A stretch of 37,997 nucleotides of DNA, taken from the IMG/VR virus record IMGVR_UViG_3300020044_003264, positions 1 through 37,997 of that record; one strand, given 5' to 3'. This DNA is from a virus. Taxonomy: Duplodnaviria; Caudoviricetes. Position numbers and translations under genes: made by a program. Positions 2,148-20,430 of this stretch are shown here, in pieces. How positions within the stretch are numbered: position 1 is the first letter of the stretch; every line of letters begins with the position of its first letter. The notes under the pieces are model-generated. The model made no database searches and was not told where the DNA came from. It saw nothing but the letters and a program-made list of their open reading frames with translations.

Positions 2148-2489
2148 ATGGCTACTACAGTTTTTGAAAAAACAGATCTCGTCCTTATGGACGGAACAAA
2201 GATAGTTATGCGACCACTTAAGATTTCACTTCTTCGTAAATTCATGAAAAAGTTTGATACCGTTGTTGATGTTGCTTCAAGCAATGTTGACTCAATGGAT
2301 GTATTGATTGATTGCGCCCTTATTGCAATGGAACAATATTCTCCAGAACTTTCAACAGATCGTGAAAAGTTTGAAGATGTTGCAGATATCAAAATGGTTT
2401 ATAAGATTATTGAAGTTGCCTCTGGCATCAAGTTGGACGCAGAGGGAAACGATCAGACGGTAGCAGCGGCACTACTTGGTCAGAACTAG
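2148..2489 (+). CDS. Tail assembly chaperone (gpG-like)
   Basis: 113 aa between the major tail gene and the tape measure; contains an in-frame slippery site. Confidence 0.8.
   Translation: MATTVFEKTDLVLMDGTKIVMRPLKISLLRKFMKKFDTVVDVASSNVDSMDVLIDCALIAMEQYSPELSTDREKFEDVADIKMVYKIIEVASGIKLDAEGNDQTVAAALLGQN
2444..2450 (+). other. -1 programmed ribosomal frameshift site G GGA AAC
   Basis: X XXY YYZ heptamer in the correct phase. The -1 frame is open from 2414 to the stop at 2851. Confidence 0.85.
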
Positions 2490-2851
2490 ACCTTGCTACC
2501 CTTGAAGCAGAAATTTTTCTTTTAGGTAATTGGAAAGATTATGAAGAATTAGAAAATAATCTTTCTATGCCAGAGATAACTGCTACATTGACAGCAATAA
2601 GAGAAAAAGAAAATAATCATAATAAATTCTTAGCAGCGATACAAGGAATTGATCTTGATGGAGAGTCTCAAGAAACCAAGGGACAAAAAGAATGGGAAGA
2701 TATAAAAGCAAGAGTATTTAGCGGAGGAACGGCAACAGATTCAAACGATATTACTTCTCTTCAAGGTATAAATGCATCACAGGCTGGATTTGGTATTGGA
2801 GCGGGGTTATCATACAACAATCTTGGAAATGAAAATGGCAGTTGGAATTAA
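2450..2851 (+). CDS. gpT-like C-terminal part of the frameshifted chaperone (fusion about 234 aa)
   Basis: The -1 frame reads RSDGSSGTTWSELDLATLEAEIFLLGNWKDYEELENNLSMPEIT..., so the listed ATG at 2567 is internal. Confidence 0.8.
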   Translation, partial: RSDGSSGTTWSELDLATLEAEIFLLGNWKDYEELENNLSMPEITATLTAIREKENNHNKFLAAIQGIDLDGESQETKGQKEWEDIKARVFSGGTATDSNDITSLQGINASQAGFGIGAGLSYNNLGNENGSWN

Positions 2852-2888: not shown

Positions 2889-5800
2889 ATGTCAGATGTA
2901 AACGCTATTATTAATATAGATATAAATTCTACTTCTGCATTGACAAATCTTAAAAGACTTGAAAGTCAAATTGATCAATTTAATAGATCAATTGCAACAA
3001 GTAATGCAACTGCTGCAGCATCACAACAAAGTTTAAATAGAGCGCTTCTTGATGGTATTAATAATACTGGGTTATTTACTGCAAAAATTACTCCAGTTGA
3101 ATCATCAATGATAAGATTTTCAAGATCTCTTGATGAAGGACGCCTATCTCTTGGAGAATATACAAAATATGCTAGTTCTCAATTACCTGGATTAAGTAGG
3201 GTATTTAAAAGAGAATTTGACAGTATTGAGCAAGTTGCTACATCTAGAGTAAAAAGTATGCAAACTCAATACTTGGCTCTCGGAAAAACGGTAGATGGAG
3301 TTACAAGAACAATTGCCTCAACTCCAACAGGTTTAGGAAAAGGCTTGGCTACAGATTTAGCCATGGTTCAACAGCGTCAACAAATATTTAATAAACTGCT
3401 TGATGATGGTTCCACAAAATTGCTCAACTGGGGAAAGAACACTCAGTGGGCTGGTCGTCAGTTGATGGTTGGATTTACGCTTCCTCTTGCTGCATTTGGT
3501 GCGGCAGCATCTAAAACATTCATGGAGATTGATAAAGCAACAATTTCACTTAAAAGAGTATATGGAGATTTAAATACAACCAAAGCAGAATTAGATTCAA
3601 ATGTTCAGGCAATTAAGGGTCTTGGTAAGGAATATACAAAATATGGAATAACATTGGCTCAGACTATAGAATTGTCTGGACGAGCGGCAGCCACTGGTGC
3701 GACTAATGAAAAACTTATGGCAGCAACTGAACAGACTCTAAGGTTTGCAACTCTTGGTCAAATGGATTACAATCAAGCACTTGATACAACTATTTCACTT
3801 CAAACTGCATTTGCTATCTCAAATGAGGATCTTGGAAAAACTGTTGACTACCTAAACGCGGTAGAAAACCAAACAATCCTTACGATGGAGGATATGTCAC
3901 TTGCTATTCCAAGAGTTGCAACAGTCGTCAAGGGTCTTGGAGGTAGTGTACAAGATTTAGCAGTAATGATGACAGCAATGCGCGAGGGTGGTGTTAGCGC
4001 AGAAAATGCTGCAAACGGTTTGAAGTCTGGTCTTGCATCATTGATTAATCCAACAGATCGAGCATCTGAAGGTTTGGCTAAAATGGGTATTAATCTTAAT
4101 TCAATAATAAAGCAAAATAAGGGCGACCTTATGGGCATTATTACTGAATTTGGAACGGCAATTAATAAATTAGATGAATTTAGTCGTCAACAAGTTCTTG
4201 AACAAGTTTTTGGTAAGTATCAATACGCAAGAATGAGTGCATTATTTACCAACATCACAAAGGATGCTGGGCAGGCAGCAAGAGCAATGGATATTGCTGG
4301 AATGTCAGCAGCAGATCTTGCCAAGGTATCAGAAAAAGAACTTGGTCAAATATCTGAATCAACATCTGTAAAATTTCAAGCAGCAATGGAACAACTTAAA
4401 ATTTCTATTGCTCCTATTGGGGAGGCATTCTTAAAAGGAATTACTCCAATAGTTAACATGGTTTCAAAAATTGCAGATGCATTTAATAATCTTCCCGATG
4501 GTGTTAAAAACACGATTGCAGTTGTCACAGGATTAGTTGCAGGTCTTGGACCAGTATTTCTTATGACAATTGGTTTGCTTGGTAACGGTTTGGCAAACTT
4601 AGTTAAAGGTTTTCAATTTTTTAGAAAAATGATTGCAGGAATTAAAGGTGATGCCTCAGCATTTACTTGGTTAGCACAAGGAGAACTTGAAGCAGTTACA
4701 GCAAGCAAAGCACTTGAAGGAAGTGCTACTAATCTTACCGATAAATTACTTCTTCAAAGAGGAGCCGTTGCTGGACTTACCGCAGAATACGAAAGATTTG
4801 CTGTTGTTGCAGGACTTGCAGGAGCAAGAATGGGCGGCATGGGTGGGGGAACAGCAACTCGTGGTGCAGCAAGCAAGCGTACTCTGCCATCACCTAGAGG
4901 TTTTGCAACAGGTGGAATAGTTCCTGGTACAGGAAGTGGCGATACAATTCCAGCCCTTCTGACACCTGGTGAAAGTGTAATTACTAAAAAGGCTACGCAA
5001 AAGTATGCTCCAATCCTTCAACAGATGAACGATGGAACTCTACCTGGATTTGCTTTTGGAACAATTGCTGAAGGAATGCAATCTGCTATCTTTAAAAAAA
5101 CTGGAAGGCAAATGGTTTCAAGAAGCGGAAAGATTCCAAACCTTCCAGCCGCAGCATTAACTTCAACTGGATCTGGACTTAGTTGGCAGAGTCAAGGTCC
5201 AATGCTTGCAAGAGAGAGTGAAGCATTAGGGAGGCCGACAACAAGAGGAGGTAAAAAAGAAGATTGGAAAGATGTTCAGCGTGGTCATGTTGTTTCAGCA
5301 ATAAGAAACGGGAAAGATCAGTACAATCCTGGAATAATGCTTTGGCAAAGAGGATCAATTAATCAAAGGCTTAAAAGTGATAGCAAGAATCCCGTCACTG
5401 CACAAGAATTAATTGATGATTTTGAAAGTTTAGATGTTCATCCAGCATCCATGCTATCTAGCGCAATGATTGGATTAGGGGTAGATGCAACTGAAGCAAG
5501 AACTTATGCAAAAAAAGCATATGAAGATATGGTTAAAAGATTGGCAAAAGAAACAAAAAGAAAACCTCCAACTTTATTTGGAGGATCAGAAAAAAGTTTT
5601 GAAGATTTTGCTGAACAAAGTTTTAGAAGTATCTTACCAACAGAAATTTTTGATAGTTTATATTCTTTAGGAACATATCGTGCTGGTGGAGGAAGATCGA
5701 AAAAGGCAATTCTTAGACCAGTAGAACTTTCTGGTGGAAGAGTCTCTATTGGACAAGCATTGAAATCATGGCAAACGAGTTCTAGAGTAGTAAGAGAAGA

Positions 5801-8800
5801 TCCAGAAATGCTTGGTGCATTAATGAGTGGAATGCGACCATCACAATCAGCAAAAACATTAACCAGAGGAACAACTCTTGGTCTTTCAAGGGGTAGCGAA
5901 TTTGATCCAACAGATGAAAGAATGATTATGGACGCCTTGCGTTCTGGAAATGTTGATAGTCTTATTGGTAGAACATTTCCAATGAGGGGACCAATTTCCT
6001 ACACTGCTGGAAATTCTGATTCTGCAATTAATGCTATGAGACAAAATTCAGATGTAAACAGAATTGAAGAGTTAAAAAGACAACACACTCAAGCAAAAAT
6101 AAAGCACAAGGCTGATTTAGAAAAAATTAAACAACTAAAAGAAAAAATTGCATTGGGAACAGCAGGTCCAGCAACCATGCGTAGGTATGAAGCACAACTT
6201 GCAGAATTAGAGGGCTTTGTCTCCATGTATGCTGCTGGGCAAAAAAGAAGAGGAAAGGAGATAAAAAGTTTAACATCAAGAGGATATGAAGATTTGCTAA
6301 TTGAGCAAAGTTTTCCATCTGGAAGTTCAATGATAGATGTAAATGAAATAAATCCAAGTGGTACATTTATGGGCAAAGATGTATCAAGAGAAAATGAATT
6401 CTTGTCTGGTGGATCAATGGTAAGGATAAAAGGTGTAAAAGTTGATTCAAAAACTGGACTTCAAACACTTGAACTTGAAACAATATCCGATAACATTCAA
6501 AGGCGTGCATTAGGTGGACCAATAGTTCCAGGAAGTGGAAACAACGATACAGTACCCGCAATGCTAACTCCAGGAGAGTTTGTAATTAATAAGCAAGCAA
6601 CTCAAGCAAACTTACCATTACTTCATGCAATTAATAATGGAAAAATTGTTAATAAAAATAAGGGTGGAATGATTGATGGTATTCAATATTTTGCAGAAGG
6701 TGGTGAGGCTCAATCAGATAGAGGTAGTGCGTCTGGCTCTGGGGCATACAAAGCAGAAACAAGAAGAATAATGGCTGTTGGATGGGATAGCCTGCAAACA
6801 GAAAAATTAATCTTAGAGGCTATGCGAGATAATAATAAAATTACTCAATCACAATTTGATGCCTTTAGTCAAGGAGAAACATCTCATATAACTCCAGAAG
6901 TCGGTCCAAATGGAGGAAAGATGTGGAGACCATCAAACATGATGGCAGATTTAGGATTAATTAATAATTATATTGAAGCACAAAAAGGTACATCTAAAAA
7001 AGCATTAGGAAATGCTAAATTATTTGGTGAAATTCAAAGTAAAACAAGTCTTTCCGCAGAACGCTTGCGTGCAGAATTAGATTTACTTTCACGAGGATTC
7101 CATGCAACAACAAGAGAATCTGCTATGGCATTGCGAGCACTTTCTCAAGTTGGTGATCAAACTGCACAAAAAATAGCAGTAAATAAAGTTTTAGAGGCTA
7201 GACTACAAGGAACGTTTTATGATACTTTAAATGCACCAGAAAGACAATACCGTTCAGACCTTCCAGTAGAAGAAAAATTCGGTAAGCGTGGCAAGGGTGG
7301 TAATCGTGGTAGAAACATTCCTCAGCCTGAAACTAGAGATCCAATGCGTCCACCAAAAGTATCATCACAGGAAGCAGACAGAATAAGAAGGCAAGCAAGA
7401 ACAGAAGCAGAAAGAAGTCTTATTGCTGAAAGAGGAGTTCCTTTTATTCAAAATAGTGATTATGAAAAAGAAATAGAAAAAAGAGCCAAGGATATAAGAA
7501 CTAGAGAATATAAAAGAATAAGCAAGGAACATGGAAGAGAGCAGGCAAGACTTATTGCAATATCAAGACAAAGCGAGATGCAACAGCCAACTCCAGAATT
7601 GGATATGAATGTTCCAAACTCAGAAGAAGAAAGAAACTTAAGAAGACAAGCCAGAAGACAAAAAATAGGTAAAGGTCTTAAAGGAGCAGGAGGAGCAGTT
7701 GGTATGCTTTCGATGCTTCCCTTTATGATGCAAAATGAAGAAGGAAAGTTCATGGGCATGGATGCAAACATGCTGGGCACTGGAATGATGGTTGGTGGTA
7801 TGGCTATGCCAGCAATGGGAAGTGCAGTTAGTGCAGCGGGTGGAGCAGGGATGCTTGCAGGAGGTGGCATAATTGCAACCCTTGGTACAGTTTTAGCACC
7901 TCTTGCTGCGGCTGCTGCCATTGCTGGTGTTGGATTAATGATATGGAGAAAGAATATTGATAATACTTCTAAAGAAACTGCTAAATTAGCATCTAATGTT
8001 GGAGTAACAGCAAATTCTTTAGGAGAAATATCAAAAATATTAGGAGTCTCAACTCCATCTCAAAGACAAGCCCAAATGAACTTAGGAATAACAAAAGAAG
8101 ACATTCAAAATCAAGAAATAATTTCTCCAATTCTTCAAAGTGAAGGTGGTCAAAAATTTATTGAAGAATTAAAAACTGCAACATCTGAAGAAAGATTTAA
8201 AAAATTAGCAGATTACACTAAAGCGGCTATTGCCTCAGGAATGATGGACAAGTCAACGGCTTCAACATTTGCTAAGGGGGTCAGCCTTTCATTAAACGAT
8301 GTTCTTCTTGGAAGAAGAATGATGCCAGTTATATCTGGTCAAAAGATTGGCAGTGGTGGAATGATGTCCATAGCAGATGAAAGAATTTCTGCTCTTAATA
8401 AATCCTCAGAAATAAAAAGAGTTGCAGCAGCAAGCGGAGAATCTCGAACTATCACAACTGCTGACGCGGCCTATACAGTAGGGGCAACAACTCAAGTAAT
8501 ATCTGATCTTTCTAATGTTATTGCTTTGGCTAGAGAAGAGTACGATAAGGGAACAATATCATTTGAAAAGATGAGATCAACAGTAGACAAGGCAACTGCT
8601 TCTCAGAATGAATACAGCAGTATGCTTACAAAAGCAATTTCTGGGTCTATGGAGCAAGGTGGAACCAGACAAGCACTCAATGATGCTCTTGTCACTATGG
8701 GTGTTGATCCAGAAAAATTATCAACATTTAAGAATGCTATGGATATAGGTGTGGGCGGTCCTGGAGTAAGTGCTTTTCAACAAGAACAAACAAAAAGAAT

Positions 8801-11800
8801 TTTGACAGAAAAGGGAATGTCTGGAAACATAGTTACTAATCCAAATGCAATCGGCAGTAGTAGAAGTGCGGCATATGGTGCAAGATTCTCTAATTTAACT
8901 GGAAGCGCCAAATCTTTTGAAAATTATCAAGCAGCAAAAGAACAAGCAGCAAGAGATGAAAGTGCCATTGTAAATGCTCAAACTTCTGGATTAGCAGAGC
9001 AATTACTTCAAGCAGTTGCAGCAAATAAGATTACAATAGATCAAGCAAATGTAATTTCAGAACAAGTAAGAACTGGATCAAAATTTGGAATGGATCTTGT
9101 TCGTGAGTTTAATGCAGGAGCAAAAGATTTAGGAGGAACCTTAAATGCATTATTTGTAGCCTCATCAAGAACAGCAGATATTGCTGGAGTTAGCGATGCT
9201 AAGGTTATGGGAATTTCACAAAAAGATAGGTATATTTCCGCTGGTGCAGCATTTGGACGTAAAGGTGGAGATGTTGAACAATATGCTGCTTTAATTGAAA
9301 GTATTCCATCACAAAAAAGAATAGACATTATCACAACATTTAATGGGTTAACATATGAACAACAATCAAAAGAAATAGCAGACATGACTCAGTTATCCGC
9401 AGCGGGTGGATCAGAAAATGCTGGAAAACTTCAATCATCTGATTTTTATCAAAAAGAATTAAAAAAGGGAAAAACAAAAGCAATTATAGACAGAAGTGTT
9501 GGTGCAGCAAATGCAGGAGTTGGAGAAGACTATTTAAGTATAATGGCAACAATAACAGCAGAAGATAATGGGGAGCCAATTAGTTCAAAAGAATATTACA
9601 GTAGATCTAAGATAGTGTTAAAAGCATTAAAAGACTTTAGTTCTAATGATAAAGTAAAAAAACAAAAGGCTGGAATAATTTTAATGCAACAAATTGAAGA
9701 TCCAGATGGAAAAAAAATATCAGCAAAAGATGCAGAAAAAGGAATGCAAGACTTAATGAAAAGATTTGGAAAAGGTAAAACATTAAATCTTCCACGTACT
9801 GTATTTAAAAAAGTATTAATTTTAGAATCAAAAGTTATAGGTTTACAAAAAATGATAGATGCAGAAAAAACAATATTATCAACCTTAGATGCTGGTAGTC
9901 AAAAAGCACAAGATTTAAGGTTAGCAATCAGATTGCAAGAAAATGCTCAAGTTGCACTTTACGATCAAATACAATCTGAATATGATCAATCTGGTGTAAG
10001 TGGCGGTGGGGGTGGCGGTAAAGGCGGTGGTGGTGGAACAAACCCACTATTAGATTTTAAAAAATCATTACTAGAACAAATAAAACTTTATGCAGATATA
10101 GAAGCAACATTAAAAACTCTTTTTTCTGCAAAAAATTCAATTCTTGGAATTCTTTCAAAAAATAATGGAATAGATGATAAACTTCGGGCTGCTGGTCTAG
10201 GTGAAACCATGGTTCAAAGCATTATGGGTATGGGTGCTGATGCTGCAAAGAAGTGGATTGGCAAAAATATATCTGGTGGTAAATTAAACGCGGCAGGAAA
10301 ACAAGAACAAACTATTGCAAGGGCAAATGTTCTAGGAGCAGCGGGAAGTCAAGCAGAAGGAGCAATTAATACTGCTAAAGCACAACAGCAGGCATCTGCA
10401 TATCTTATTACTGGAAAATATGGCAAAGGAAAAAAGCAAACATTAGGTCAGGCAAGTGGTCAAGTTTTATCAATGATTGCAGGAAGTCCTGAACTTTCCG
10501 ATGCATATGTTGCTGCTGTAAATGAAGTAATTGCTGCTGATAAGAAATACCGATCATCAACGGGAGAAGCAAAAGTAAAAGCCAAAAATGAATGGGATGC
10601 AAAAAGAGAAAGTTTAGAAAAATATTTAAAAAGATTAGATGAATCTATAACACAACAAACAGTTGCTGGAAAATTAACAGAAGCCAGAGCAACAATAAAG
10701 GAAGATGCTGCTAAAAATTTTGCAAAGAATAGACTTGCAAAAGATTCATCAATTTCAAAAGAATTAAGAGATGCAATATCAGGTGATGGAGCATCTAGTT
10801 TAGCATATATACAACTTGGTAATGCGGTAACCAGAAGTCAAGCAGCACTTGCAAAAACAAAAAAGGGCAGTAGAGGATACGCAAAGAAAAAACAACAGGC
10901 TGAATTTGCTCAATCAGCATTTAGTGATTTTATGAAAGGGCAGGAGTTGGGGCTTGGTGATCCTGAACAAAGACGACTTCAAGCAAATTTAGATCTAGCA
11001 AATAAAGCAAAAGAAGAATCAGATAAATTATATAAAGCACAAACAGATCCATTAATAGAGCAAATTAATTTAATCAATAGACAAATTGAAGCAATTCAAA
11101 AACTTAACGATGCTGATCAAAATAGAATCAGAAATCTTAATAGAGAAAAAGAAATGCTTGAACGTGATATTGAAGCCATTAATCGTAAAAATGAAAAAGA
11201 TCAAGTTAGCATAGAAAAACTTCAGCGTGAAGATGAATTAAGAAATCGCGTTGCAGATGCATTGAACCATGAACTATCTCTTATGAGTAATCAAGAAACA
11301 AAAATACGAGAAGCCTATGATAAAAGAGTTAAGGCTCTTGATGAAGTTGCAAAAATTAATGACTATATAATTGGTCAACAAAAAAGTCAATTGGGTCTTG
11401 CTCAAGCATTAAGTCAAGGAGATGTTTATGCCGCTGCCGCAGCACAACAAGAAATGCAAACGGGTACTGCTCAATTTGCTCAAAATCAAATGCGTGCAGG
11501 ACTTCAAACGGGCATGGAGAATCAAGTTGCTGGACTTACAACTTCTGGTGGATTAACGAGGGTACAGGCAGAAGATCAAATTCGTGCAATAGGTGAGCAA
11601 TCATATCAAACATCGTTGCTTGTCAGAGATTTACAAGATGTAATTTATGCAAGAAATCTTGATATTGCAGCAATAAAAGAAACAATACGAGGAAAAGATG
11701 ATGATATTCGAAGGATTCAAGACGATATATATAAGAGAGAAACAAACATAATTGGACTTCAAACAGGAAAACTAACAGATTTGAATAATCAATTAACTGC

Positions 11801-12509
11801 AATAAATGATCAAAAAGATGCTGTAGATAAGGTTGCTAATGCTAATATTGATGCTGCTCAAGTAGCATTAGACAATTATGGATTAACTCAAGAACAAATA
11901 GACCAAGTTTATAATCTAGCACTTCAATGGAGAGAAGTTGTTAAGCAAATAGATAATGCTAACAAAGCAATGAAGGATCAACTTAAAGATCTTATTGAGC
12001 CAACAAAACCAGATGACACTGCAAGTGCTAAAGTAAAAGCACAGTATGAGACAGATTATGCAGAATGGAAAACAAAATATGATAAAATCATAGCAGATAA
12101 TGCAGCAGCAAAAAAGACTGCTATGGATAGTGGTAAACCTTTGAGTACCGTTATTGCCAAGGCTGCTGGAGGAATTATTGGTACAGGTGGAAGAGACTCA
12201 ATTCCTGCCATGCTTACCCCTGGAGAATTTGTCATGCGTAAAGCATCTGTTGAAAAATACGGAGCATCAATGTTTGAAAAAATGAATATGGGAGCATTTG
12301 AAATGCCAAGATACAATATGCAGCAGCCATCTACTACTGCTATTCAGCCAGTATCTAATAATTCAAATATTAATGCACCAGTGTATAATAGTTATAGTGT
12401 GAATGTTCATGCAAATACAAATGCAAATGCAGACGATATTGCAAACACGGTTATGACTAAGATAAAGAGGGTAGATAGTATGGCAGTAAGGAGTTTCCGT
12501 GGATACTAA
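2889..12509 (+). CDS. Tape measure protein (3206 aa) with inserted candidate enzymatic domains
   Basis: TP901-type tape measure core at ~3450-4450, hydrophobic segments, coiled coils, three GG..PGxGxxDT(I/V)PA(M/L)LTPGE-like motifs, and position after the chaperones. Confidence 0.92.
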   Translation: MSDVNAIINIDINSTSALTNLKRLESQIDQFNRSIATSNATAAASQQSLNRALLDGINNTGLFTAKITPVESSMIRFSRSLDEGRLSLGEYTKYASSQLPGLSRVFKREFDSIEQVATSRVKSMQTQYLALGKTVDGVTRTIASTPTGLGKGLATDLAMVQQRQQIFNKLLDDGSTKLLNWGKNTQWAGRQLMVGFTLPLAAFGAAASKTFMEIDKATISLKRVYGDLNTTKAELDSNVQAIKGLGKEYTKYGITLAQTIELSGRAAATGATNEKLMAATEQTLRFATLGQMDYNQALDTTISLQTAFAISNEDLGKTVDYLNAVENQTILTMEDMSLAIPRVATVVKGLGGSVQDLAVMMTAMREGGVSAENAANGLKSGLASLINPTDRASEGLAKMGINLNSIIKQNKGDLMGIITEFGTAINKLDEFSRQQVLEQVFGKYQYARMSALFTNITKDAGQAARAMDIAGMSAADLAKVSEKELGQISESTSVKFQAAMEQLKISIAPIGEAFLKGITPIVNMVSKIADAFNNLPDGVKNTIAVVTGLVAGLGPVFLMTIGLLGNGLANLVKGFQFFRKMIAGIKGDASAFTWLAQGELEAVTASKALEGSATNLTDKLLLQRGAVAGLTAEYERFAVVAGLAGARMGGMGGGTATRGAASKRTLPSPRGFATGGIVPGTGSGDTIPALLTPGESVITKKATQKYAPILQQMNDGTLPGFAFGTIAEGMQSAIFKKTGRQMVSRSGKIPNLPAAALTSTGSGLSWQSQGPMLARESEALGRPTTRGGKKEDWKDVQRGHVVSAIRNGKDQYNPGIMLWQRGSINQRLKSDSKNPVTAQELIDDFESLDVHPASMLSSAMIGLGVDATEARTYAKKAYEDMVKRLAKETKRKPPTLFGGSEKSFEDFAEQSFRSILPTEIFDSLYSLGTYRAGGGRSKKAILRPVELSGGRVSIGQALKSWQTSSRVVREDPEMLGALMSGMRPSQSAKTLTRGTTLGLSRGSEFDPTDERMIMDALRSGNVDSLIGRTFPMRGPISYTAGNSDSAINAMRQNSDVNRIEELKRQHTQAKIKHKADLEKIKQLKEKIALGTAGPATMRRYEAQLAELEGFVSMYAAGQKRRGKEIKSLTSRGYEDLLIEQSFPSGSSMIDVNEINPSGTFMGKDVSRENEFLSGGSMVRIKGVKVDSKTGLQTLELETISDNIQRRALGGPIVPGSGNNDTVPAMLTPGEFVINKQATQANLPLLHAINNGKIVNKNKGGMIDGIQYFAEGGEAQSDRGSASGSGAYKAETRRIMAVGWDSLQTEKLILEAMRDNNKITQSQFDAFSQGETSHITPEVGPNGGKMWRPSNMMADLGLINNYIEAQKGTSKKALGNAKLFGEIQSKTSLSAERLRAELDLLSRGFHATTRESAMALRALSQVGDQTAQKIAVNKVLEARLQGTFYDTLNAPERQYRSDLPVEEKFGKRGKGGNRGRNIPQPETRDPMRPPKVSSQEADRIRRQARTEAERSLIAERGVPFIQNSDYEKEIEKRAKDIRTREYKRISKEHGREQARLIAISRQSEMQQPTPELDMNVPNSEEERNLRRQARRQKIGKGLKGAGGAVGMLSMLPFMMQNEEGKFMGMDANMLGTGMMVGGMAMPAMGSAVSAAGGAGMLAGGGIIATLGTVLAPLAAAAAIAGVGLMIWRKNIDNTSKETAKLASNVGVTANSLGEISKILGVSTPSQRQAQMNLGITKEDIQNQEIISPILQSEGGQKFIEELKTATSEERFKKLADYTKAAIASGMMDKSTASTFAKGVSLSLNDVLLGRRMMPVISGQKIGSGGMMSIADERISALNKSSEIKRVAAASGESRTITTADAAYTVGATTQVISDLSNVIALAREEYDKGTISFEKMRSTVDKATASQNEYSSMLTKAISGSMEQGGTRQALNDALVTMGVDPEKLSTFKNAMDIGVGGPGVSAFQQEQTKRILTEKGMSGNIVTNPNAIGSSRSAAYGARFSNLTGSAKSFENYQAAKEQAARDESAIVNAQTSGLAEQLLQAVAANKITIDQANVISEQVRTGSKFGMDLVREFNAGAKDLGGTLNALFVASSRTADIAGVSDAKVMGISQKDRYISAGAAFGRKGGDVEQYAALIESIPSQKRIDIITTFNGLTYEQQSKEIADMTQLSAAGGSENAGKLQSSDFYQKELKKGKTKAIIDRSVGAANAGVGEDYLSIMATITAEDNGEPISSKEYYSRSKIVLKALKDFSSNDKVKKQKAGIILMQQIEDPDGKKISAKDAEKGMQDLMKRFGKGKTLNLPRTVFKKVLILESKVIGLQKMIDAEKTILSTLDAGSQKAQDLRLAIRLQENAQVALYDQIQSEYDQSGVSGGGGGGKGGGGGTNPLLDFKKSLLEQIKLYADIEATLKTLFSAKNSILGILSKNNGIDDKLRAAGLGETMVQSIMGMGADAAKKWIGKNISGGKLNAAGKQEQTIARANVLGAAGSQAEGAINTAKAQQQASAYLITGKYGKGKKQTLGQASGQVLSMIAGSPELSDAYVAAVNEVIAADKKYRSSTGEAKVKAKNEWDAKRESLEKYLKRLDESITQQTVAGKLTEARATIKEDAAKNFAKNRLAKDSSISKELRDAISGDGASSLAYIQLGNAVTRSQAALAKTKKGSRGYAKKKQQAEFAQSAFSDFMKGQELGLGDPEQRRLQANLDLANKAKEESDKLYKAQTDPLIEQINLINRQIEAIQKLNDADQNRIRNLNREKEMLERDIEAINRKNEKDQVSIEKLQREDELRNRVADALNHELSLMSNQETKIREAYDKRVKALDEVAKINDYIIGQQKSQLGLAQALSQGDVYAAAAAQQEMQTGTAQFAQNQMRAGLQTGMENQVAGLTTSGGLTRVQAEDQIRAIGEQSYQTSLLVRDLQDVIYARNLDIAAIKETIRGKDDDIRRIQDDIYKRETNIIGLQTGKLTDLNNQLTAINDQKDAVDKVANANIDAAQVALDNYGLTQEQIDQVYNLALQWREVVKQIDNANKAMKDQLKDLIEPTKPDDTASAKVKAQYETDYAEWKTKYDKIIADNAAAKKTAMDSGKPLSTVIAKAAGGIIGTGGRDSIPAMLTPGEFVMRKASVEKYGASMFEKMNMGAFEMPRYNMQQPSTTAIQPVSNNSNINAPVYNSYSVNVHANTNANADDIANTVMTKIKRVDSMAVRSFRGY
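5745..6490 (+). other. Putative ADP-ribosyltransferase domain (VIP2/C3-like R-S-E clan) within the tape measure
   Basis: Ordered motifs TLTRG (Arg 5865), GRTFPMRGPISYT (Ser 5997), LLIEQSFPSGS and RENEFL (ExE 6390-6398). Confidence 0.7.
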
Positions 12510-13179
12510 TCCAAGTAATTTAGAACTGGTTACTTTAAATCCCCCAGCAAATCCAACGACTCAAGTGTATGGTGCTAACTATATACCCAAAAGAACAAAG
12601 TGGTCAAGACCACAAGCAATGCTTTGGTCTGACAATGCTGGAACTATTATGGATAATGTGAGATTTCCATTAGGTATTGAAAAAGAAGATTTTTTGATAT
12701 TATCAGATCATAATCGTGGAGAAATGAATATCTCTCAACAAAGAATTGAAACTAGGCAAAGAATGATCAATGGAACAATGAGATCATATTTTATTGCTAA
12801 TAAGATAAATATATCTGTTGCTTGGAATAGACTTCCATCTAGATCATTTTCTAGAAACGTAATTTTTGATCAAAATGGTATTCCAGTCGAATCATCAACA
12901 TATACTGAATATACCGCAGATGCGGGGGCAGGCGGTGTAGAGATTCTTGATTGGTATGAAAATCATTCAGGACCATTCTATGTGTATTTAGCATATGATA
13001 AATATAATAATGCATCTTTTCAAACTGGTGGGGCAATAACAGATGCTTCTTTTGATTACCTATCAATTTATAACGATGTTAGACTTATGTTTTTTTCATC
13101 ATTTGAGTATTCAATAGAAAAAAGAGGCGCAAATAATTTTGATTTTTGGAATATTAGTGTGTCATTGGAAGAAGTCTAA
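12499..13179 (+). CDS. Minor tail protein (distal-tail position)
   Basis: First gene after the tape measure; LILSDHNR...RQRMINGTMRS and a terminal WNISVSLEEV. Confidence 0.7.
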   Translation: MDTNPSNLELVTLNPPANPTTQVYGANYIPKRTKWSRPQAMLWSDNAGTIMDNVRFPLGIEKEDFLILSDHNRGEMNISQQRIETRQRMINGTMRSYFIANKINISVAWNRLPSRSFSRNVIFDQNGIPVESSTYTEYTADAGAGGVEILDWYENHSGPFYVYLAYDKYNNASFQTGGAITDASFDYLSIYNDVRLMFFSSFEYSIEKRGANNFDFWNISVSLEEV

Positions 13180-16100
13180 TGTTTCAATCAGATCCTCTAA
13201 ATGATCATCTTAAAACATCTCATACAATTGCAAGTGCTCAAGAAGTATTTCTTGAATTAAATCTTGGCCTATATGGTTTTATGCAATCCTCTAATGAGTA
13301 AAGAAGGTTCATCTTTTTCTTTTTTGTGATAAAAGATACTGGTTCTCCATCATCATCAAAACCATTGTCAACCACAATATCAGAATCTGTGGCTCCAGTG
13401 TAATACTTTATTAATCCGCTATCATCATCATAAGTTGTTTTAATTGAAGCAAACACACTTCCTGCAAGTGCGGGTCTGTAACGATAGTTGTCAAGATCTG
13501 GAATAACTAAATTATTAAATTTAGGTAATGTAATGAATTATACATCAGTATATAATATAACATTTAAACAGTTAACATCAAATATTGCTACTTTGACAAC
13601 TTCAGAACCCTATTTACAAATATCAAATAAAATAAAAATAGGAGATACAGTAATTGTAAAAGGAATTGATTCTACCTTTAATGGAACTTATACTATAACC
13701 GCTGTAACAAATAATACAATTAGTTATTTTAAAACATCAGCAAACGTTAGTCTTACTAGTACAACAGGAAATATATTAATAAATACAAATATTAAAGGAA
13801 ATCAGTATGTTGATAGTCCAAAAACCCATAAGAGCGAAACTGAACCACTATTATCTACAAATGTGGCTAGGCGTCCTAGATATTATATGTCATCTAAATT
13901 TGATCAATTTAAATATTGGACCTCATATAGACAAGAAACAGATGGTAATGATAATGGAGAGTATGGAATATCAAAAAGAAATTCAATAGATAAAAAAGAT
14001 TATATTTATGATGCCGCTCCATTTGTTGTATATAGAGAAAAAGTTCCAGTAAATAAACTTGTATTTAAAATGCAAACAAGTGTTGGAGAAATAGATCTTG
14101 GTCCGTATAGATTACAAAGCAACCCTAGAAGTTCTACTAATCCAGATCCGTTATATGGAGAAGAAAGAAAAACAATTCCCAAAAAATGGATGGTACAAGT
14201 TCTTAAAGATGATAGTACTACTTGGACTAATATTATATCTTTTTCAAATAATTTTTTATATACAAAAGAAGATAATACTATAGTCACTAGATCATCAACT
14301 AATCCAATAATAAATTCAGATGGATATGTAGAATTGCAATATGGATTAGATGTTCCAGCAGCATATCAAGATTCATTTGTTCTTGTAGATACTATATATT
14401 CTTCATCAAGTTTACCGGGAACAAATACCCCAATAGGTTACGCATATTTATTTAAAGAAACAGAAACTGATAAAGGAAAACTTTATATCAGTGATGGATC
14501 TGGTTGGGATATTGTCACTCCATCATACTCTTGGACTTTAGCAGATGAAACAATCAGCGCAAGCACAAAGTTTATTACAAAACTTTCAGATCCATATTCA
14601 TATGTTGAAAATAATACAAAAGTATATAGAGATTTTCAATTCATTCGCGGTATAAGAATTGTTGTAGACACAATGAATAGACCTGATTGCACATTTGATC
14701 TTATTGAAATGTCTCCAAGATTATATGCAAGAATTACTGACAAGGTAACAGCATATTCTGTTACAAAAACATTATCTGATTTAGGATCAACATCTATTCC
14801 AGTAGGTAATCTTTTTGCTTCGGTAGGAAACCTATCATTATTTGATGATGACTTTTCATTCAGTTCTAATAATCAATTTAATGAAAATACAAACCAAGGA
14901 AGCATTATTTCAAAATATGTAGATAATCAAATGAAATTTGATTTTTATGATGTTGTAAGAAATGTTAACTCAGTTGATTATTATATTCCAGTAAAGACTA
15001 TGTACTCTCAAGGATTTCCTCAAACAAGTGATGTTGCTGCAACAGTTGATATTCAAATTCGTGATTTTTTCTTTTTTCTTGAATCTCAAAAGGCACCATC
15101 AATGCTTCTTACTGACGTATCTTTAAGTTATGCAATAGTTGTTCTTTTAGATAATGTTGGATTTAGTAATTATGTATTTAAAAGAACAACAAATGAAAAA
15201 GAATTAATAATTCCATATTTTTTTGTTGGTCCAGATCAAAGTGTTGCAGAGGTTTTGCAACAATTAGCAGTGTCATCACAAAGTGCAATGTTTTTTGATG
15301 AATATAACAACCTTGTTGTAATGTCAAAAAACTACATGCTTCCATCTGAGGAGGAGAGGCCAACCGATTTAGTCCTATATGGTCAAGAAGAGTTAGTTGA
15401 CTCCAAAGTAAATCTTCCAAATATTATTAATATTTCATCTAAAGAAAAGCGGGTATACAACGGAGGTCAAATTAACTATACCTCTAGATATATTCAAAGA
15501 TCATTAGGATCAATTTCTCAAGCACCATATATTGATCAATATAAAACTTATACATATAAGCCTTCACTATTATGGGAAGTTGCGGGGCAACAGGATAGGC
15601 AAACTATTAATGAATTGGGCGCTCAATCTTCAGGTTACTCCCTTGCAGCAACTCCATTAAATACAAATTTATCAGCATCGTTGCCAATTGTTGAATATCC
15701 TTTAATTTCCAATACTGGTGTAGTATCTGCAATTAGTGGAACTGGACCTTGGTCAGCAGTAATAACTGTACCGAATGCTAATAAGTTTTTTACTGGAATC
15801 AAGATTATTGCAACTGATGGCACTGGATCTCTTGGAAGCGGAGGTACATACACAGTAACAAATGTAAACAATGTCAACAACACAGTGACTTTTACTGCAA
15901 CTGGTGGCACCCTTCCAGATACAGGAACAATTACAAATATTCGCAATGCAGAAAAGATATTAAACAATAACACTATGGACCTTGGTGAAGGTATCTATTG
16001 GCTTGGAAATTATTCTGGATACCTCTATGCAAATGGAGAAATAATTAAATACGATGCAGTAGAGTATGTCGTTCAAGGTGTTGGCAATGTATGGATTAGC

Positions 16101-19100
16101 AATAATCATGAATATCAAGACTATTTTTCAGCATTAAAGTTTAATGGAAAAATGTATCCAAGTGGTAGCGTAAGGATCTATGCTGAGCCAAAATATGAAG
16201 AATATCCTATATCAAGTGGAACTTTTATAATGTCCTTAGGGGATGTAAAGGAACATGGTAGGGGCCAATTTGGAACTACTGTGACTGAGCACATTGCTGG
16301 GCTTACTGAATCAAGTCATTGGATAAAGGATACCAACATAAAAGGTTGTATTCAGAGTGCTAGACAATATATGTTCACTATGAATAAAACAGTATCATAT
16401 CCGACAGGAATGGGAGTCGGAGAAGCAGGTAATACAAAAAATACAACTGGCGGCCAGTTTAGTTCATACGAGTATGCAATAAAGTCATCAAGAAATGGGA
16501 TAATTAAAAACTTTATGGCGAATAAAAACTATACTGAAAATGAAATTGCATATATGAAAACTGCACAATCTGGAGCAATTCAATCATCAGCATTAGTTTT
16601 TAATGGTCCTCCACTTCCAAGTGGCATAAACTCAGCAGATTTTGTTTCATATATATATAAACAACTTGATAAGCCATACACTCATTTTGGAACAAGAATG
16701 AGGATTATTGGAAAAATAGAGTCATCAACAAATCAATCTCAAACAGCAAGCGGTGGATATAGTATTATTTCAAGTAATAGTGTCGTATCGCCAAATTCAT
16801 CAAGCGATATCAAAGTTACTGGTGGTTCTGGTGGAATAGGATTTGGAATAAATTCGGCATACAATAATGGATATTTTTTTGAAATTGTCGCATTAAGTAC
16901 AAACTCAGTAAGCGCATACACCAGCAACAACAGTGTTAAAGATTTTGAAATTGTAAAAAGTCCAGTAACTCAATCAGTAGATGGATTAGTTACTGTAACA
17001 ACAAAAACACAGCATACTTTTAATGTTGGAGATAAAATAATTGTTTCTGGTTTAGTTGATGATAATAGAAAAACTCAAACAACAACTACTCTTAATGGAG
17101 AGTTTTCTGTAACGTCTATTGGAAACAATAGAAAGACATTTCAGTATCAAATTACCCCCCCACCTACAGGATATCTAACACCTTCAATTACAACGTCTGG
17201 CGTTACATCCTCTACGTCACTATTAATTCAAAATAGTGTGCCTAAAGTTTTTACTATTGTTCCAGATCAAATATACAATTTTAATATAACAAACAAGCAA
17301 CTAACATCAAATGTTGCAACCTTGACAACTTCAACTAATCATACAATAAAAGTAGGAGACTCAGTAACGGTTACAGGAGTAGACGCTACATTCAATGGAA
17401 CGTATACTGTAACCGCTACTGCTAGTAACACTTTTAATTATGCAAAAACAGCAGGAGACATTTCCTCTACAGCAGTAAGTCCAGCAGGTAGCGTAAGTGG
17501 AACAAATACTTTATTTACAACTGGTATGCGTTTGAGAGCATTAAACCCAACAACACCATCTAATTATATGGAAGGAGTTGTAACTATATTAGGTACAACA
17601 ATGACCATGACTGTTGATGCTATTGGGGGGTCGGGAACTTATGCATCATGGGTAATAAGTTTGGCAAGTAATATTGGTGCAAAGGGGGATGGAACTTCTG
17701 TAACTTATTTGTGTAATAATGAATTCTCTATTGGTCAATTAGTTACTATAACTGGCATGAAAACATCAACTGGTTCTAGTTTGAATTTAACTAACGCAAT
17801 TATTCAAAGCAGAACAAGTTCTCAATTTACTGTAAGTTCAACAGTAGTTGGATCTGGTTTTGGGGGAATAGCGACATTTGTTCCTCTTAGTACTATTTCT
17901 CAAAATGGAGGAACTGTATCAATAAATCTTGAAGATGATATTGCATTCTCAAATATATTCTTCTACAAGGTTCTTGCTGGTCAGAATAAATCAGAAATTA
18001 TTAAAAAAGCAAGGACTGGAAACGTTGCTACACTTACAACATTAATACCACATAGTTTTATAGTTAATGATTCAATTACTGTAAGCAATGTTGATGCAGC
18101 ACTCAATGGAACATATACAATAACTGCTGTAACACAATATACTTTATCTTATCAAACATCAACTAGTGGAACTATAGCAGAAACACAGATATCGCCTATT
18201 GGCTTAGTTGTAGGAAATGAAAAAGTAGCAATTCCACAAACTCTTTGGCAAGGTCTTGCAGATATTATTGTTGACGATGGAAAGTTTACTGGTTTATCAA
18301 GAATGGTAAGTTCTGAAAAAACAACAGTATATGATCTTTCTGTTGAGTATGTAAATATAGGATCAGTAAGAAGGTTTTATTTATACTTAAATAATAAACA
18401 ACTTGCAGTAATTGATGATCCAGATCCTCTACCAGAATATAATAATCTTGCCTTATTTGTTAGAGGATCTTCAAAGTGCATGTTTGAAAATGTTTATGCA
18501 TTAAATACAGGATACGAGAATACAGATCCAAATAAGGCTGTTCAAATACCAATATCAAAAGTTTTTGGGGATCAAGAAGTAAATGCAAATGAAGCATTAA
18601 ATAAATATGCTATTAACGGTTTTGTTCAGCAAACATTCCTGTCTGGAATAGGATCTGAACAGCCACCCAAATATCAATTATTCTATGATGAGTTTGGAAC
18701 TATTATGAGGGAGGCTGTATTCTTTAACGTTCGCTATGACCGTGCATTCCCTGCCCTGTATTCAAAGATTGCAGACACGCTGAACGGAACAAAAGGGTAC
18801 ACCGTATCAGGATACTACGCTGGATCATATGGGGCTGAGTTTATGATATTTAACTGTACTGATAAGAACCTTAACCTTGACGATACTACTGGAAATTATT
18901 TAAGAATTCTTGGAATTGCTTTTACTCAGAACACAACATATTCTCTTACTGTGGATGAATATCTAAAGAGGGTGAGCAATCTTTCAGATGCCCCAATCTA
19001 TGATAATCTTACTCCAGGACAGTCATTAAACTATAAAAAGATTTACGATACCATTAAGAATAGTAGATTGAAATATGGCGTTAATGAGTTTTCAATAGAA

Positions 19101-19364
19101 AGTCCTTATTTACAAACCACGGCAGCAGCAGAAGCAATGCTTGATTGGATTATCAATAAAACTATTGATCCAAGAAAAACAATTGGAGTGAACACCTTTG
19201 CTACCCCAACCTTACAATTAGGAGATATTGTCACAATGAATTATAAGAATTCTGATGGACTGTATGTTGTTGCAGATGCCAATGAAAGATATGTTGTGTA
19301 TAACATAGAAAATCAAAAGGGACCAACTGGAACTCAAATGACAGTCCATTTGGCAGAGGTGTAA
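13179..19364 (+). CDS. Large tail tip/baseplate hub protein. True start is ATG 13179; interrupted here by an inversion of 13267-13491 (2061 aa when restored).
   Basis: TAATG coupling to the upstream gene, same frame as ORF 13488-19364, and re-inversion gives a stop-free frame. C-terminal TLQLGDIVT...VHLAEV resembles tail-hub proteins. Confidence 0.75.
13261..13497. repeat. Inverted repeats ATCTTG (13261-13266) / CAAGAT (13492-13497) flanking the flipped segment
   Basis: AAATCTTGGC versus reverse-complement AGATCTTGAC: 6-bp core, 8 of 10 positions matching. Confidence 0.8.
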
Positions 19365-20430
19365 TATGGCATTTGAAAGTTATGCTGATGTTCAAGCAGC
19401 CCTTGATGAAGAGTATGCTGCATGGCAAGGAGGAGCCGCTGGTAGAAGTGCTAGAGGTCAAGAAGCAAGAGATTGGTGGGCTGCTCAAACTGCTGCTCCT
19501 TCTGTAGGTGAAGGATCTACAACACCAATGTCATCTCCACCACCAGCACCAGTTCTTCCTACATTTATTCCAATAACATCTAGCATAACTGCAATAAAGC
19601 AGGCTCCTATAGATACCGTTGTATTTAATGAAGACTCTGTTTCAATCCAGCAATTGACTGAATTACTTTATGAAGAAATTGGCGGTATGGAATTAATAAA
19701 TATTTCCAGAGAAGATACAGTAAATGGTCAAGATGTTGTTTATTCTCCAATTAGTAATATTGGTAGTATTTGGTATCAATATAATCCAAATAATGTAATT
19801 GCCGTAGGTTCTTCATTTGACACATTCTTTTCTCGTTTTGCAATTGATTTAATTTTAAGAGGAATGAATATTCCTTACTTCAATGAAGACGGGGATCTTG
19901 TAATAGAAATTGACGATGTGCTTAGTGATGAAGAAATTCATTATCAAATAGCATCCAGTGGTACAATTAACGAGGTTGATATTTAATGATTACAAATCAA
20001 GGTAAAGAGATTATTTCAAAGTACTTGCTTAGTCAAGTTCCGTCCTACGCTACTCATATTGCGGTAGGTTGTGGTGCTACTCCGCTTGATGGAAATGATA
20101 CCGCTCCGTCAACAATAACTTTACTAGAAAAAGAAATTCTTGATTTTGAAATGTTTAGGGTTCCAATTACGTCTAAAGGATTTGTTAATCAAGAATATAA
20201 TTTTGAGATAACCAATAAGCAACTAACATCAAATATTGCTACATTAACCACCTCTATTGCACATAATATAAGCATAGGAGATTCAGTAATTATAACTGGT
20301 ATTGATTCTACTTTTAATGGAACATATAGCGTTTCTGGTGTTCCCACAAGCACCACTTTTAATTATTCATTAACTCATACAAATATTTCATCTACTGCGG
20401 TAAGCCCTGTTGGAAATGTAAATGTATCAA
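13551..20430 (+). repeat. Dispersed ~75-aa beta-rich repeat module in tail proteins
   Basis: Close copies at ~13551-13785, 17274-17500, 17990-18215 and 20196-20430. Diverged copies at ~15715-15940, 16945-17155 and 17670-17880. Consensus KQLTSNxATLTTS..H...GDSV..xGxDxxFNGTYxxT. Confidence 0.85.
19366..19986 (+). CDS. Minor tail/baseplate protein with Ala/Pro-rich N-terminus
   Basis: 206 aa, coupled to its neighbours in the tail module; EEIGGMELINISR motif. Confidence 0.55.
   Translation: MAFESYADVQAALDEEYAAWQGGAAGRSARGQEARDWWAAQTAAPSVGEGSTTPMSSPPPAPVLPTFIPITSSITAIKQAPIDTVVFNEDSVSIQQLTELLYEEIGGMELINISREDTVNGQDVVYSPISNIGSIWYQYNPNNVIAVGSSFDTFFSRFAIDLILRGMNIPYFNEDGDLVIEIDDVLSDEEIHYQIASSGTINEVDI

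What the first reader, a model, noticed from the sequence alone, without database searches (positions are those of the whole stretch)
4902..12300. Tape measure built like a cargo-carrying polyprotein: three copies of a normally C-terminal motif next to enzyme-like domains
Seen: the motif (F/A)AxGG..PGxGxxD(T/S)(I/V)PA(M/L)LTPGE(F/S)V..K.(A/S) occurs at ~4902-5060, ~6501-6700 and ~12162-12300. The two internal copies end in a second FAxG(G/T) and are each followed by non-helical globular sequence. Known: a related motif (FATGG...GEFV..K.AT) lies in the C-terminal part of lambda gpH, which is proteolytically matured, and tape measures are ejected at infection. Inference: the internal copies delimit swappable cassettes and may be processing sites or recombination anchors, so the tail lumen could deliver several effectors into the host.
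Basis: partly seen in the sequence, partly recalled or inferred. Interest (0 to 1): 0.85.

Follow-up and report, generated by a model that had tools for sequence, protein, structure and literature searches.

The report
Tape measure carrying swappable enzyme cassettes
The tail "ruler" protein of this uncultured phage carries a predicted ADP-ribosyltransferase and two possible nuclease modules fenced by a repeated motif at which close relatives gain, lose and swap modules, and it is likely cut at that motif so that the enzymes would be injected into the host with the DNA.

Summary
Confirmed. ORF 2889-12509 is a 3,206-aa tape measure protein (TMP) of a probable actinobacterial siphovirus, with three copies of a ~50-aa motif at 4902, 6504 and 12159. 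Between two hydrophobic blocks lie three modules: an R-S-E ADP-ribosyltransferase (pLDDT 90, Z 13.2 to iota-like and C3 enzymes, R/S/ExE intact) and two His-Asn domains that only weakly resemble HNH nucleases (Z 4.1). Relatives prove modularity: identity to TMPs 92-94% alike at the N terminus falls from 96% to 10-20% right after copy 1, and four clean cassette indels (163-949 aa) sit at motif heads. Relatives add kinase-like, HAD, nucleotidyltransferase-like and GNAT-like cassettes, most tested ones under purifying selection. T5's mapped TMP cut (after R1127) falls exactly at an x|AxGG head, although homology beyond that head was not shown. Best reading: a polyprotein cut during tail maturation that injects a polymorphic effector set (0.5). 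Cutting, delivery and activity are untested. The motif is not 'normally C-terminal': 52 of 59 complete relatives have an internal copy, and cultured actinophages use two copies around wall hydrolases. My ten literature searches found no cytoplasmic-type cargo arrays in TMPs, but this scan has noted similar arrays in about 31 other genomes.

The parts
2889..12509 (+). Tape measure protein gene, 3,206 aa
   Evidence: PF10145 E 2e-29; TIGR01760 E 1.6e-38; same gene order as Streptomyces phage Comrade: major tail, two chaperone-sized ORFs, TMP, minor tail genes
2889..4901 (+). Conserved N-terminal TMP region, including hydrophobic block 1 (aa 541-568, nt 4509-4592)
4902..5063 (+). Motif copy 1 (FATGG ... 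DTIPALLTPGESV ... PGFAFGT); relatives diverge immediately after PGFAxG
5064..5700 (+). Cassette A1: hypervariable His-Asn domain (H800, N825), HNH-like by motif only
   Evidence: 29-30% identity to P0004/P0008, no hit in the 89-94% N-terminal relatives; profile link to cassette B E 2.4e-4; not folded
5679..5738 (+). Degenerate short heads (R-AGGG, L-SGG) at the A1/ART boundary; relatives read FAGG or ALGG here
   Evidence: identity to P0002/P0003 returns to 90% or more at aa ~950
5718..6497 (+). Cassette A2: predicted R-S-E mono-ADP-ribosyltransferase (R993, S1037, E1168-x-E1170) with a ~75-aa helical hairpin insert
   Evidence: AlphaFold2 pLDDT 89.7; VIA Z 13.2, rmsd 2.5, 142 aligned; Foldseek E 3.5e-5; alignment
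6504..6704 (+). Motif copy 2 (R-ALGG ... DTVPAMLTPGEFV ... NKGG ... FAEGG)
6714..7289 (+). Cassette B: compact His-Asn-Asn domain (H1333, N1350, N1359), weakly HNH-like
   Evidence: H and last N invariant in 15 of 15 aligned; pLDDT 82.3; top VIA hit Cas9 HNH region, Z 4.1; found in 26 TMPs
7671..7949 (+). Hydrophobic block 2 (peak aa 1652-1687), closing the cargo region
   Evidence: hydropathy scan; equivalent block lies only ~140 aa after block 1 in Comrade
7950..12158 (+). Long alanine-rich and coiled-coil-like ruler region, helical by composition (inferred, not folded)
   Evidence: 27-44% identity to most relatives over aa 1900-2600
12159..12299 (+). Motif copy 3 (K-AAGG ... DSIPAMLTPGEFV), ~115 aa from the C terminus, like lambda gpH 732-784

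Best explanation
This tape measure protein carries swappable modules fenced by a conserved motif, among them a predicted ADP-ribosyltransferase and two possible nucleases, and it is likely a precursor that would be cut at each x|AxGG motif head during tail maturation so that the modules would be ejected into the host as separate effectors. Shown: (1) it is a TMP; (2) cargo sits between two hydrophobic blocks that are only ~140 aa apart in cultured relatives; (3) cargo is gained, lost and swapped at the motif; (4) the motif and most tested cargo are under purifying selection. Predicted: (5) cassette A2 has an arginine-type (E-x-E) mono-ART fold with intact catalytic residues. Inferred: (6) cargo is packed unfolded in the tail lumen and cut at motif heads, as T5 pb2 is cut at R|AEGG, by an unknown protease or by the motif itself (D and E are invariant); (7) on ejection the hydrophobic blocks insert into the cell membrane and the cargo reaches the cytoplasm, where its co-substrates (NAD+, ATP, acetyl-CoA) are; (8) it modifies or cuts host defence or transcription targets in the first moments of infection, like T4 Alt, and cassette turnover reflects an arms race with host defences.
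For: Modularity: identity to P0003 and P0002 (94% and 92% at the N terminus) is 96% across copy 1, 3-36% across A1, and 90-93% again at the ART start. Six TMPs 89-94% alike at the N terminus carry four different first cassettes. Clean indels between close pairs sit at motif heads: 543 aa (P0004/P0008), 949 aa (L038/L037), 183 aa (L001/L010) and 163 aa (L010/L002). L001 has at least six long copies. Cargo is scattered over the N-terminal tree. Enzymes: ART fold; HAD phosphatase above the Pfam cut-off in L002, L010, L038 and L049, and GNAT in L049; kinase-like cassette with invariant K, E, D-x-D, N and D whose nearest named Atlas clusters are LepB_N, PI3_PI4_kinase and HipA_2. Selection: dN/dS 0.07-0.18 for five of six cargo comparisons between L001, L002 and L010, and 0.09-0.13 for the motif. 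Processing: T5 pb2 is cut after R1127 (PMC10038345), residue 1128 starts one of only two [AN]xGG sites in its 1,219 aa; a cut at lambda gpH 733 would give 12.5 kDa against the reported ~14 kDa; K or R precedes the head in 45 of 91 scored copies.
Against: No cleavage, packaging, delivery or activity was observed. T5's motif matches this one over only 11 columns (probability 1%) and shares no PHROG with it. The JBD30 paper reads the same motif (1022-1066) as a baseplate hook, with a guessed cut at its C-terminal end (PMC11445458). L068 carries a His-Asn domain with no internal long motif, so the long motif is not required. The HNH fold match is weak (Z 4.1; Foldseek none). The nucleotidyltransferase-like cassette is below all cut-offs and has dN/dS 0.47. 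Close relatives differ by up to 1,222 aa (L037 1,889, L038 3,111), which would change tail length greatly if all cargo is packed. Only 15 of 109 unselected TMPs carry non-HNH cargo by my profiles, a lower bound. Membrane topology was not determined.
Confidence: 0.5

Rival explanations
1. The cargo is delivered but stays attached: the TMP inserts as a membrane hairpin, the cargo loop hangs in the cytoplasm at the injection site and acts locally on TMP-sensing or DNA-cutting defences, and the motif is a folding or anchoring 'hook' rather than a cut site.
For: Cargo lies exactly between the two hydrophobic blocks. JBD30 authors predict a hook fold for the motif. L068 has cargo without a long internal motif. 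The defence nuclease SNIPE associates with TMPs during injection (PMC13190303, passages).
Against: Every clean indel junction and most cassette boundaries carry the short xAxGG head, which is the part that matches T5's cut. A hook role explains one C-terminal copy, not six or more internal ones.
Confidence: 0.25
2. The cargo is cut out before or during tail assembly and never packaged: the TMP gene is an expression vehicle and the enzymes act late in the producing cell, for example against superinfecting phages or late-acting defences.
For: It avoids the tail-length problem (1,222-aa difference between L037 and L038) and the need to unfold and refold globular domains in a narrow tube.
Against: Excising the middle would separate the N-terminal part from the ruler before length is set. 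In lambda, cutting follows tail assembly, and the T5 and lambda fragments stay in the tail. A free gene would do this job more simply.
Confidence: 0.12
3. The cargo is a 'Trojan horse' aimed at protist grazers that ingest virions or infected cells.
For: The ART's best structural matches act on eukaryotic targets. The idea was proposed for ART genes of freshwater phages (PMC6802176, passages). One near cluster of the kinase-like cassette is Legionella LepB_N.
Against: The same fold includes T4 Alt/ModA/ModB, which act on bacteria, and the bacterial toxin-immunity ARTs 8za7 and 6drh score Z 12.7 and 10.2. A tail lumen opens onto a bacterial envelope, and no eukaryote-entry component is evident.
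Confidence: 0.06
4. The cassettes are selfish or neutral in-frame insertions, homing-nuclease-like, tolerated because the motif lets them be cut out.
For: The first slot is hypervariable and nuclease-like.
Against: Non-nuclease cassettes are under purifying selection, keep catalytic residues and recur across the tree.
Confidence: 0.07

Closest known systems
Phage T5 tape measure pb2, matured into pb2* and pb2C (PMC10038345, passages read)
   Same: An enzyme domain is carried in the TMP and separated by a cut that falls at an x|AxGG head; both fragments stay in the tail and are ejected.
   Different: One cut near the C terminus and one wall-degrading domain. Here there are internal heads and cytoplasmic-type enzymes. 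Homology of the motif body was not shown.
Lambda gpH, matured into gpH* and gpHC (PMC12617516, passages read)
   Same: Related motif at residues 732-784 (shared phrog_24 positions), in the region where the ~14-kDa fragment is cut off.
   Different: Single motif region, no enzyme cargo, exact cut site and protease unknown.
Tape measures of cultured actinophages: Streptomyces phage Comrade gp39 (Stanwilliamsviridae), mycobacteriophage Douge gp16
   Same: Comrade is among the closest cultured relatives (36.5%). Both have two motif copies. In Comrade they fence what read by eye as lysozyme-like and M23-like domains.
   Different: Their fenced cargo is near the C terminus and aimed at the cell wall. 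Comrade has only ~140 aa between the hydrophobic blocks where this protein has ~1,000. No record among 50,697 phages matches the ART, cassette B or the kinase-like cassette.
Polyvalent proteins (Iyer et al. 2017, PMC5512222; abstract, passages and section 9 read)
   Same: Unrelated enzymes (ART, kinase, GNAT, nucleotidyltransferase, nuclease) in one polypeptide, proposed to be injected early and processed.
   Different: The word 'tape' does not occur in that paper's main text. Processing there is ascribed to HExxH metallopeptidases, absent here. [quoted passage not shown]
T4 Alt and MuF-fused VIP2-like ARTs of actinophages (PMC5512222 section 9; PMC7302621 passages)
   Same: Virion-borne R-S-E ART that enters, or is predicted to enter, with the DNA.
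   Different: Carried in the head, as a single domain; here in the tail ruler, as one of several swappable modules.

Membership tests
Siphovirus tape measure proteins (TP901 type) | PhageMin_Tail / tape_meas_TP901 domain | tested here: met
   PF10145 E 2e-29, TIGR01760 E 1.6e-38
Siphovirus tape measure proteins (TP901 type) | Gene between major tail/chaperone genes and distal tail/hub genes | tested here: met
   same order in Comrade
Siphovirus tape measure proteins (TP901 type) | Sets tail length | not testable with these tools
   needs electron microscopy of virions
R-S-E mono-ADP-ribosyltransferases (cassette A2) | C3/Vip2-type fold | tested here: met
   VIA Z 13.2, rmsd 2.5, 142 aligned; top 8 rows all ARTs; Foldseek E 3.5e-5
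R-S-E mono-ADP-ribosyltransferases (cassette A2) | Catalytic R, S-x-S/T and E-x-E | tested here: met
   R993 invariant, E1168 and E1170 in 90% or more of 14 rows, S1037-Y-T present
R-S-E mono-ADP-ribosyltransferases (cassette A2) | Sequence match to Pfam ADPrib_exo_Tox | tested here: inconclusive
   no match; a ~75-aa insert splits the domain
R-S-E mono-ADP-ribosyltransferases (cassette A2) | Transfers ADP-ribose from NAD+ | not testable with these tools
   needs an assay
HNH / His-Me finger nucleases (cassettes A1, B) | Catalytic His on a strand and Asn ligand at the start of a helix | tested here: met
   B: H58 on strand 55-58, N84 in helix 82-89, both invariant in 15 of 15; N75 lies 9 before N84, as in Cas9 N854/N863 (numbers recalled). 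A1 lacks the middle Asn.
HNH / His-Me finger nucleases (cassettes A1, B) | beta-beta-alpha-metal fold | tested here: inconclusive
   top VIA row Cas9 546-657, Z 4.1, rmsd 4.1, 93 aligned, four more Cas9 rows at Z 2.9-3.0 among unrelated helical rows; Foldseek and Pfam none; A1 not folded
T5 pb2-type processed tape measures | x|AxGG head at the cut site | tested here: met
   heads at 4902, 6504, 12159 and short ones at 5049, 5679, 6657, 6690; T5 1128
T5 pb2-type processed tape measures | Homology of the motif body to T5 pb2C | tested here: inconclusive
   11 columns, probability 1%; no shared PHROG
T5 pb2-type processed tape measures | Cleavage in the mature tail | not testable with these tools
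   needs virion proteomics
Polyvalent proteins (Iyer 2017) | Two or more unrelated enzyme domains in one polypeptide | tested here: met
   ART plus His-Asn domains here; kinase-like, HAD, GNAT-like and others in relatives
Polyvalent proteins (Iyer 2017) | HExxH metallopeptidase as processing domain (in 36% of members, not obligatory) | tested here: not met
   no HExxH in the window TMP; 1 of 123 TMPs has the pattern
Polyvalent proteins (Iyer 2017) | Injected with the DNA | not testable with these tools
   inferred from TMP biology
Polymorphic toxin systems (MuF type; features recalled, paper seen as listing only) | Variable toxin at the C terminus | tested here: not met
   variable part is internal; the C terminus is conserved
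Polymorphic toxin systems (MuF type; features recalled, paper seen as listing only) | Immunity gene directly downstream | tested here: not met
   next ORF (12499-13179) overlaps the TMP stop and sits in the minor tail gene position; an immunity gene elsewhere is not excluded, since the record is ~35% complete

The most novel reading that the evidence does not exclude
The non-contractile tail works as a programmable protein magazine: a self-cleaving ~50-aa module (invariant G, D and E) splits the tape measure into a train of separately folded effectors that enter the cytoplasm ahead of the DNA, and phages reload the magazine by recombining at that module. The same module would be the unknown protease or cut signal that matures lambda gpH and T5 pb2.
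Probability: 0.2. Interest if true: 0.92.

Novelty: new variant of a known kind. Interest (0 to 1): 0.7.

Why it matters
Tape measures are known to carry wall hydrolases, and virion-borne effectors are known from heads. A polymorphic array of cytoplasmic-type enzymes inside the tail ruler would be a separate first-strike route for siphoviruses, in phages of probable actinobacterial hosts whose relatives occur in lake metagenomes. It also makes an old question testable: how TMP cleavage is catalysed is stated to be unknown for lambda (PMC12617516), and this family offers over 200 natural copies of the candidate signal with three invariant residues. Natural pairs that differ by 163-949 aa at motif junctions test directly whether folded-domain cargo counts toward tail length.

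Tried and rejected
DNA repeat search gave no family covering the motif copies. Pfam, PHROG and NCBIfam give nothing for cassettes A1, A2 and B. PDB sequence searches with the B, ART and kinase-like alignments gave only chance hits. Foldseek for B: nothing in PDB, one TMP relative in BFVD; the Atlas result for B had low recognition and is not used. No stand-alone homologue of B of similar length was found, which does not show absence. A viral-contig scan with the ART found nothing. ART-PolyVal and ADPrib_exo_Tox profile scans of 5 records each were empty, and the first rang in no control, so the PARP-like reading of some relatives' cassettes is by eye only. The test of alignment ends against motif sites (42% vs 9% within 10 aa) is rejected because masking the motif forces ends there. 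Pairs L139/L142 and L049/L123 were too diverged in the cargo region to give a junction, so the four clean junctions come from five informative of six to seven pairs examined, not from a census. A weak LexA hit of the motif profile (E 0.02) suggested a Ser-Lys peptidase, but the serine position is not conserved; rejected. The short TMPs of L060 and L061 come from a frameshift in a repeat and a single stop, not from a split at the motif. The dN/dS for L018/L093 (0.86) rests on almost no changes and is uninformative. Misassembly is rejected: no long DNA repeats, and independent proteins share the layout. Contigs of four lake or freshwater runs cover cassette A1 little or not at all; absence of cover is not evidence. 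Ghai et al. 2017 was not held, so whether its ART lies in a TMP is unchecked. The F-pyocin preprint had nothing on TMP cleavage. No complex prediction was run.
Full report
Setting. The window is a whole 37,997-base virus record, about 35% complete. It runs from tail genes through a replication block (DnaB, primase, DnaE, RecA) to the terminase. ORF 2889-12509 encodes a 3,206-aa tape measure protein (TMP): PF10145 E 2e-29, TIGR01760 E 1.6e-38. Its best cultured matches are Streptomyces phages at 34-37% identity, with the same gene order in Comrade. Two of two near-complete relatives tested (101-106 kb) encode WhiB, of 5 records searched, so an actinobacterial host is likely. Relatives at mostly 80-95% DNA identity lie in four of four lake or freshwater runs laid on the gene.

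The observation. Three copies of a ~50-aa motif start at 4902, 6504 and 12159, and the internal ones end in a second FAxG(G/T). They are the only hits of a 60-copy profile in the record. In five near-complete relatives all 11 hits lie in long frames at the TMP locus. G, D and E are invariant in the 60-copy alignment, and the D...GE core is found in 201 of 206 distinct copies. The motif has no Pfam family. It is related to lambda gpH 732-784, JBD30 gp46 1017-1066 and two places in Douge gp16. It is not normally single or C-terminal in this family: of 59 complete distinct TMPs found with the N-terminal region as query, 52 have a copy between residues 500 and 1000, 56 have one near the C terminus, and internal copies number 0, 1, 2 or 3 in 4, 44, 9 and 2 proteins. 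The incomplete L001 has six.

Anatomy. Hydrophobic blocks lie at aa 541-568 and 1652-1687. In Comrade the equivalents are at 532-574 and 714-761. The ~1,000 residues between them here hold copy 1, cassette A1, cassette A2, copy 2, cassette B and a charged linker. Comrade instead has two weaker copies near the C terminus (1650 and 2035) around domains that read by eye as lysozyme-like and M23-like. So fencing of cargo by this motif exists in cultured phages; the position and kind of cargo are what differ.

Cassette A2 (5718-6497). A search of 1.84 billion representatives gave 13 hits; 11 are full TMPs of this family and 2 are fragments carrying the motif. The AlphaFold2 model has pLDDT 89.7 (two of the 14 alignment rows were poorly aligned). 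The eight best of 48,161 chains are all ADP-ribosyltransferases, led by CPILE-a (Z 13.2, rmsd 2.5, 142 aligned) and C3stau2; Foldseek agrees (E 3.5e-5). R993, S1037-Y-T and E1168-N-E1170 are present and conserved. E-x-E marks arginine-specific enzymes (established knowledge). A ~75-aa helical hairpin splits the domain, which probably explains the lack of a Pfam hit.

Cassettes A1 and B. B (6714-7289) folds with pLDDT 82.3 into a compact, mostly helical domain with two short strands. H1333 and N1359 are invariant in 15 of 15 aligned members. The best structural match is the HNH region of a Cas9, but at Z 4.1 among unrelated helical rows, and Foldseek finds nothing. A1 (H800, N825) links to B by profile comparison (E 2.4e-4) and to a third subfamily (E 3.6e-5). 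Some His-Asn profile hits 66 of 109 unselected TMPs, seeds included. I put nuclease activity at about 0.6.

Modularity. Against P0003 and P0002, identity is 96% through copy 1, 3-36% through A1 and 90-93% at the start of the ART, and the break follows PGFAxG exactly. Six TMPs 89-94% alike at the N terminus carry four unrelated or barely related first cassettes, and the window's A1 matches proteins only 65% alike at the N terminus. Four clean indels in close pairs have motif heads at their junctions: 543 aa, and 949, 183 and 163 aa; two further pairs were too diverged to call. One contig of run X3 matches the window up to 5054 and then continues for about 400 unaligned bases. Relatives add HAD phosphatases (above the Pfam cut-off in 4 proteins), a GNAT-like domain, a kinase-like domain in 14 TMPs, a sub-threshold HIGH nucleotidyltransferase-like domain and, by eye only, PARP-like ARTs. 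These are scattered over the N-terminal tree. By my profiles 15 of 109 unselected TMPs carry such non-HNH cargo, a lower bound. dN/dS is 0.07-0.18 in five of six cargo comparisons among L001, L002 and L010, 0.47 for the nucleotidyltransferase-like cassette, 0.40 for the distant window/L005 ART pair and 0.09-0.13 for the motif. Copies within one gene share 69-82% of bases in L001 but only about half of fourfold third positions: the motif is kept as protein, though it can also seed recombination.

Is the motif a cut site? T5 pb2 is cut after R1127 and both pieces stay in the tail (PMC10038345, passages; the figure with the site was not seen). In the fetched sequence residue 1128 begins A-E-G-G, one of two [AN]xGG sites in 1,219 aa. 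Lambda gpH loses a ~14-kDa piece from its glycine-rich C-terminal region by an unknown enzyme (PMC12617516, passages); a cut at the motif head gives 12.5 kDa, and a cut at its end gives 7 kDa. K or R precedes the head in 45 of 91 scored copies, against 11.5% background. Against this: T5's motif body does not align significantly, the T5 coincidence was noticed after the fact, and the JBD30 authors read the motif as a baseplate hook cut at its far end, by prediction only (PMC11445458 section 16). No HExxH peptidase is present.

Mechanism. Most likely the TMP is made as a precursor, packed in the tail, cut at motif heads, and ejected so that the cargo between the two membrane-seeking blocks reaches the cytoplasm, where NAD+, ATP and acetyl-CoA are available. 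The ART would then act like T4 Alt, and the His-Asn domains would cut host or competitor nucleic acid. My odds: modular cargo 0.95, delivery into the host 0.75, cutting at internal heads 0.55, whole model 0.5. Rivals are a tethered cargo loop (0.25), cargo that is never packaged (0.12), selfish inserts (0.07) and a toxin against grazers (0.06; idea from PMC6802176, passages).

Comparison and novelty. It works like polyvalent proteins and virion-borne ARTs (PMC5512222: abstract, passages, section 9; PMC7302621 and PMC7824862: passages). It differs in carrier (tail ruler), processing signal and ART class, and it fails the MuF-type polymorphic toxin tests. Ten full-text searches found no paper describing cytoplasmic-type enzyme arrays in TMPs. 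Subscription papers, Ghai 2017 and all supplements were not seen, and the Iyer 2017 supplements could hold such architectures. No record among 50,697 annotated phages matches three cassettes tested. This scan's own unchecked notes report similar arrays in about 31 other genomes. That is not independent support, but it means this window is one good example of a recurring theme. Verdict: a real and unusual variant of known kinds, interest 0.7.

Noticed in passing
window 13488-19364 and 19986-21344: The 1,958-aa minor tail protein repeats a ~60-aa beta-rich unit (LTSNxATLTT...GxDxTFNGTYT) several times, and the unit recurs in the 452-aa ORF; only weak E1_FCCH-like Pfam hit.
   Followed up: no
window 34418-34963: Lysozyme-like (SLT_3, Transglycosylas) gene among replication genes, just before the terminase genes, away from the tail block.
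   Followed up: no
window 2148-2851: Two chaperone-sized ORFs before the TMP, 77 nt apart; whether a frameshift joins them was not examined.
   Followed up: no
phage records H69, H70: The motif also hits hypothetical proteins of large Synechococcus phages (175-190 kb), so it may occur outside siphovirus TMPs.
   Followed up: no
L042, L048, L066, L075, L140, L142: Extra motif copies in the C-terminal half of the TMP (residues 1685-2637), possibly fencing wall-directed cargo as in Comrade.
   Followed up: no
L093, TMP residues 670-1710: Cargo order His-Asn domain, kinase-like, ART-like, then a motif copy directly before the hydrophobic block, so the motif fences the array at both ends.
   Followed up: partly
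L060 near 13312; L061 near 9998: TMP frames broken by a frameshift inside a tandem repeat (L060) and by a single stop (L061); probably assembly or sequencing errors.
   Followed up: partly
L001, L002, L010 TMP cassettes with a HIGH-like motif: Weak matches to NMN adenylyltransferases next to ARTs and HAD phosphatases suggest an NAD-centred cargo set.
   Followed up: partly
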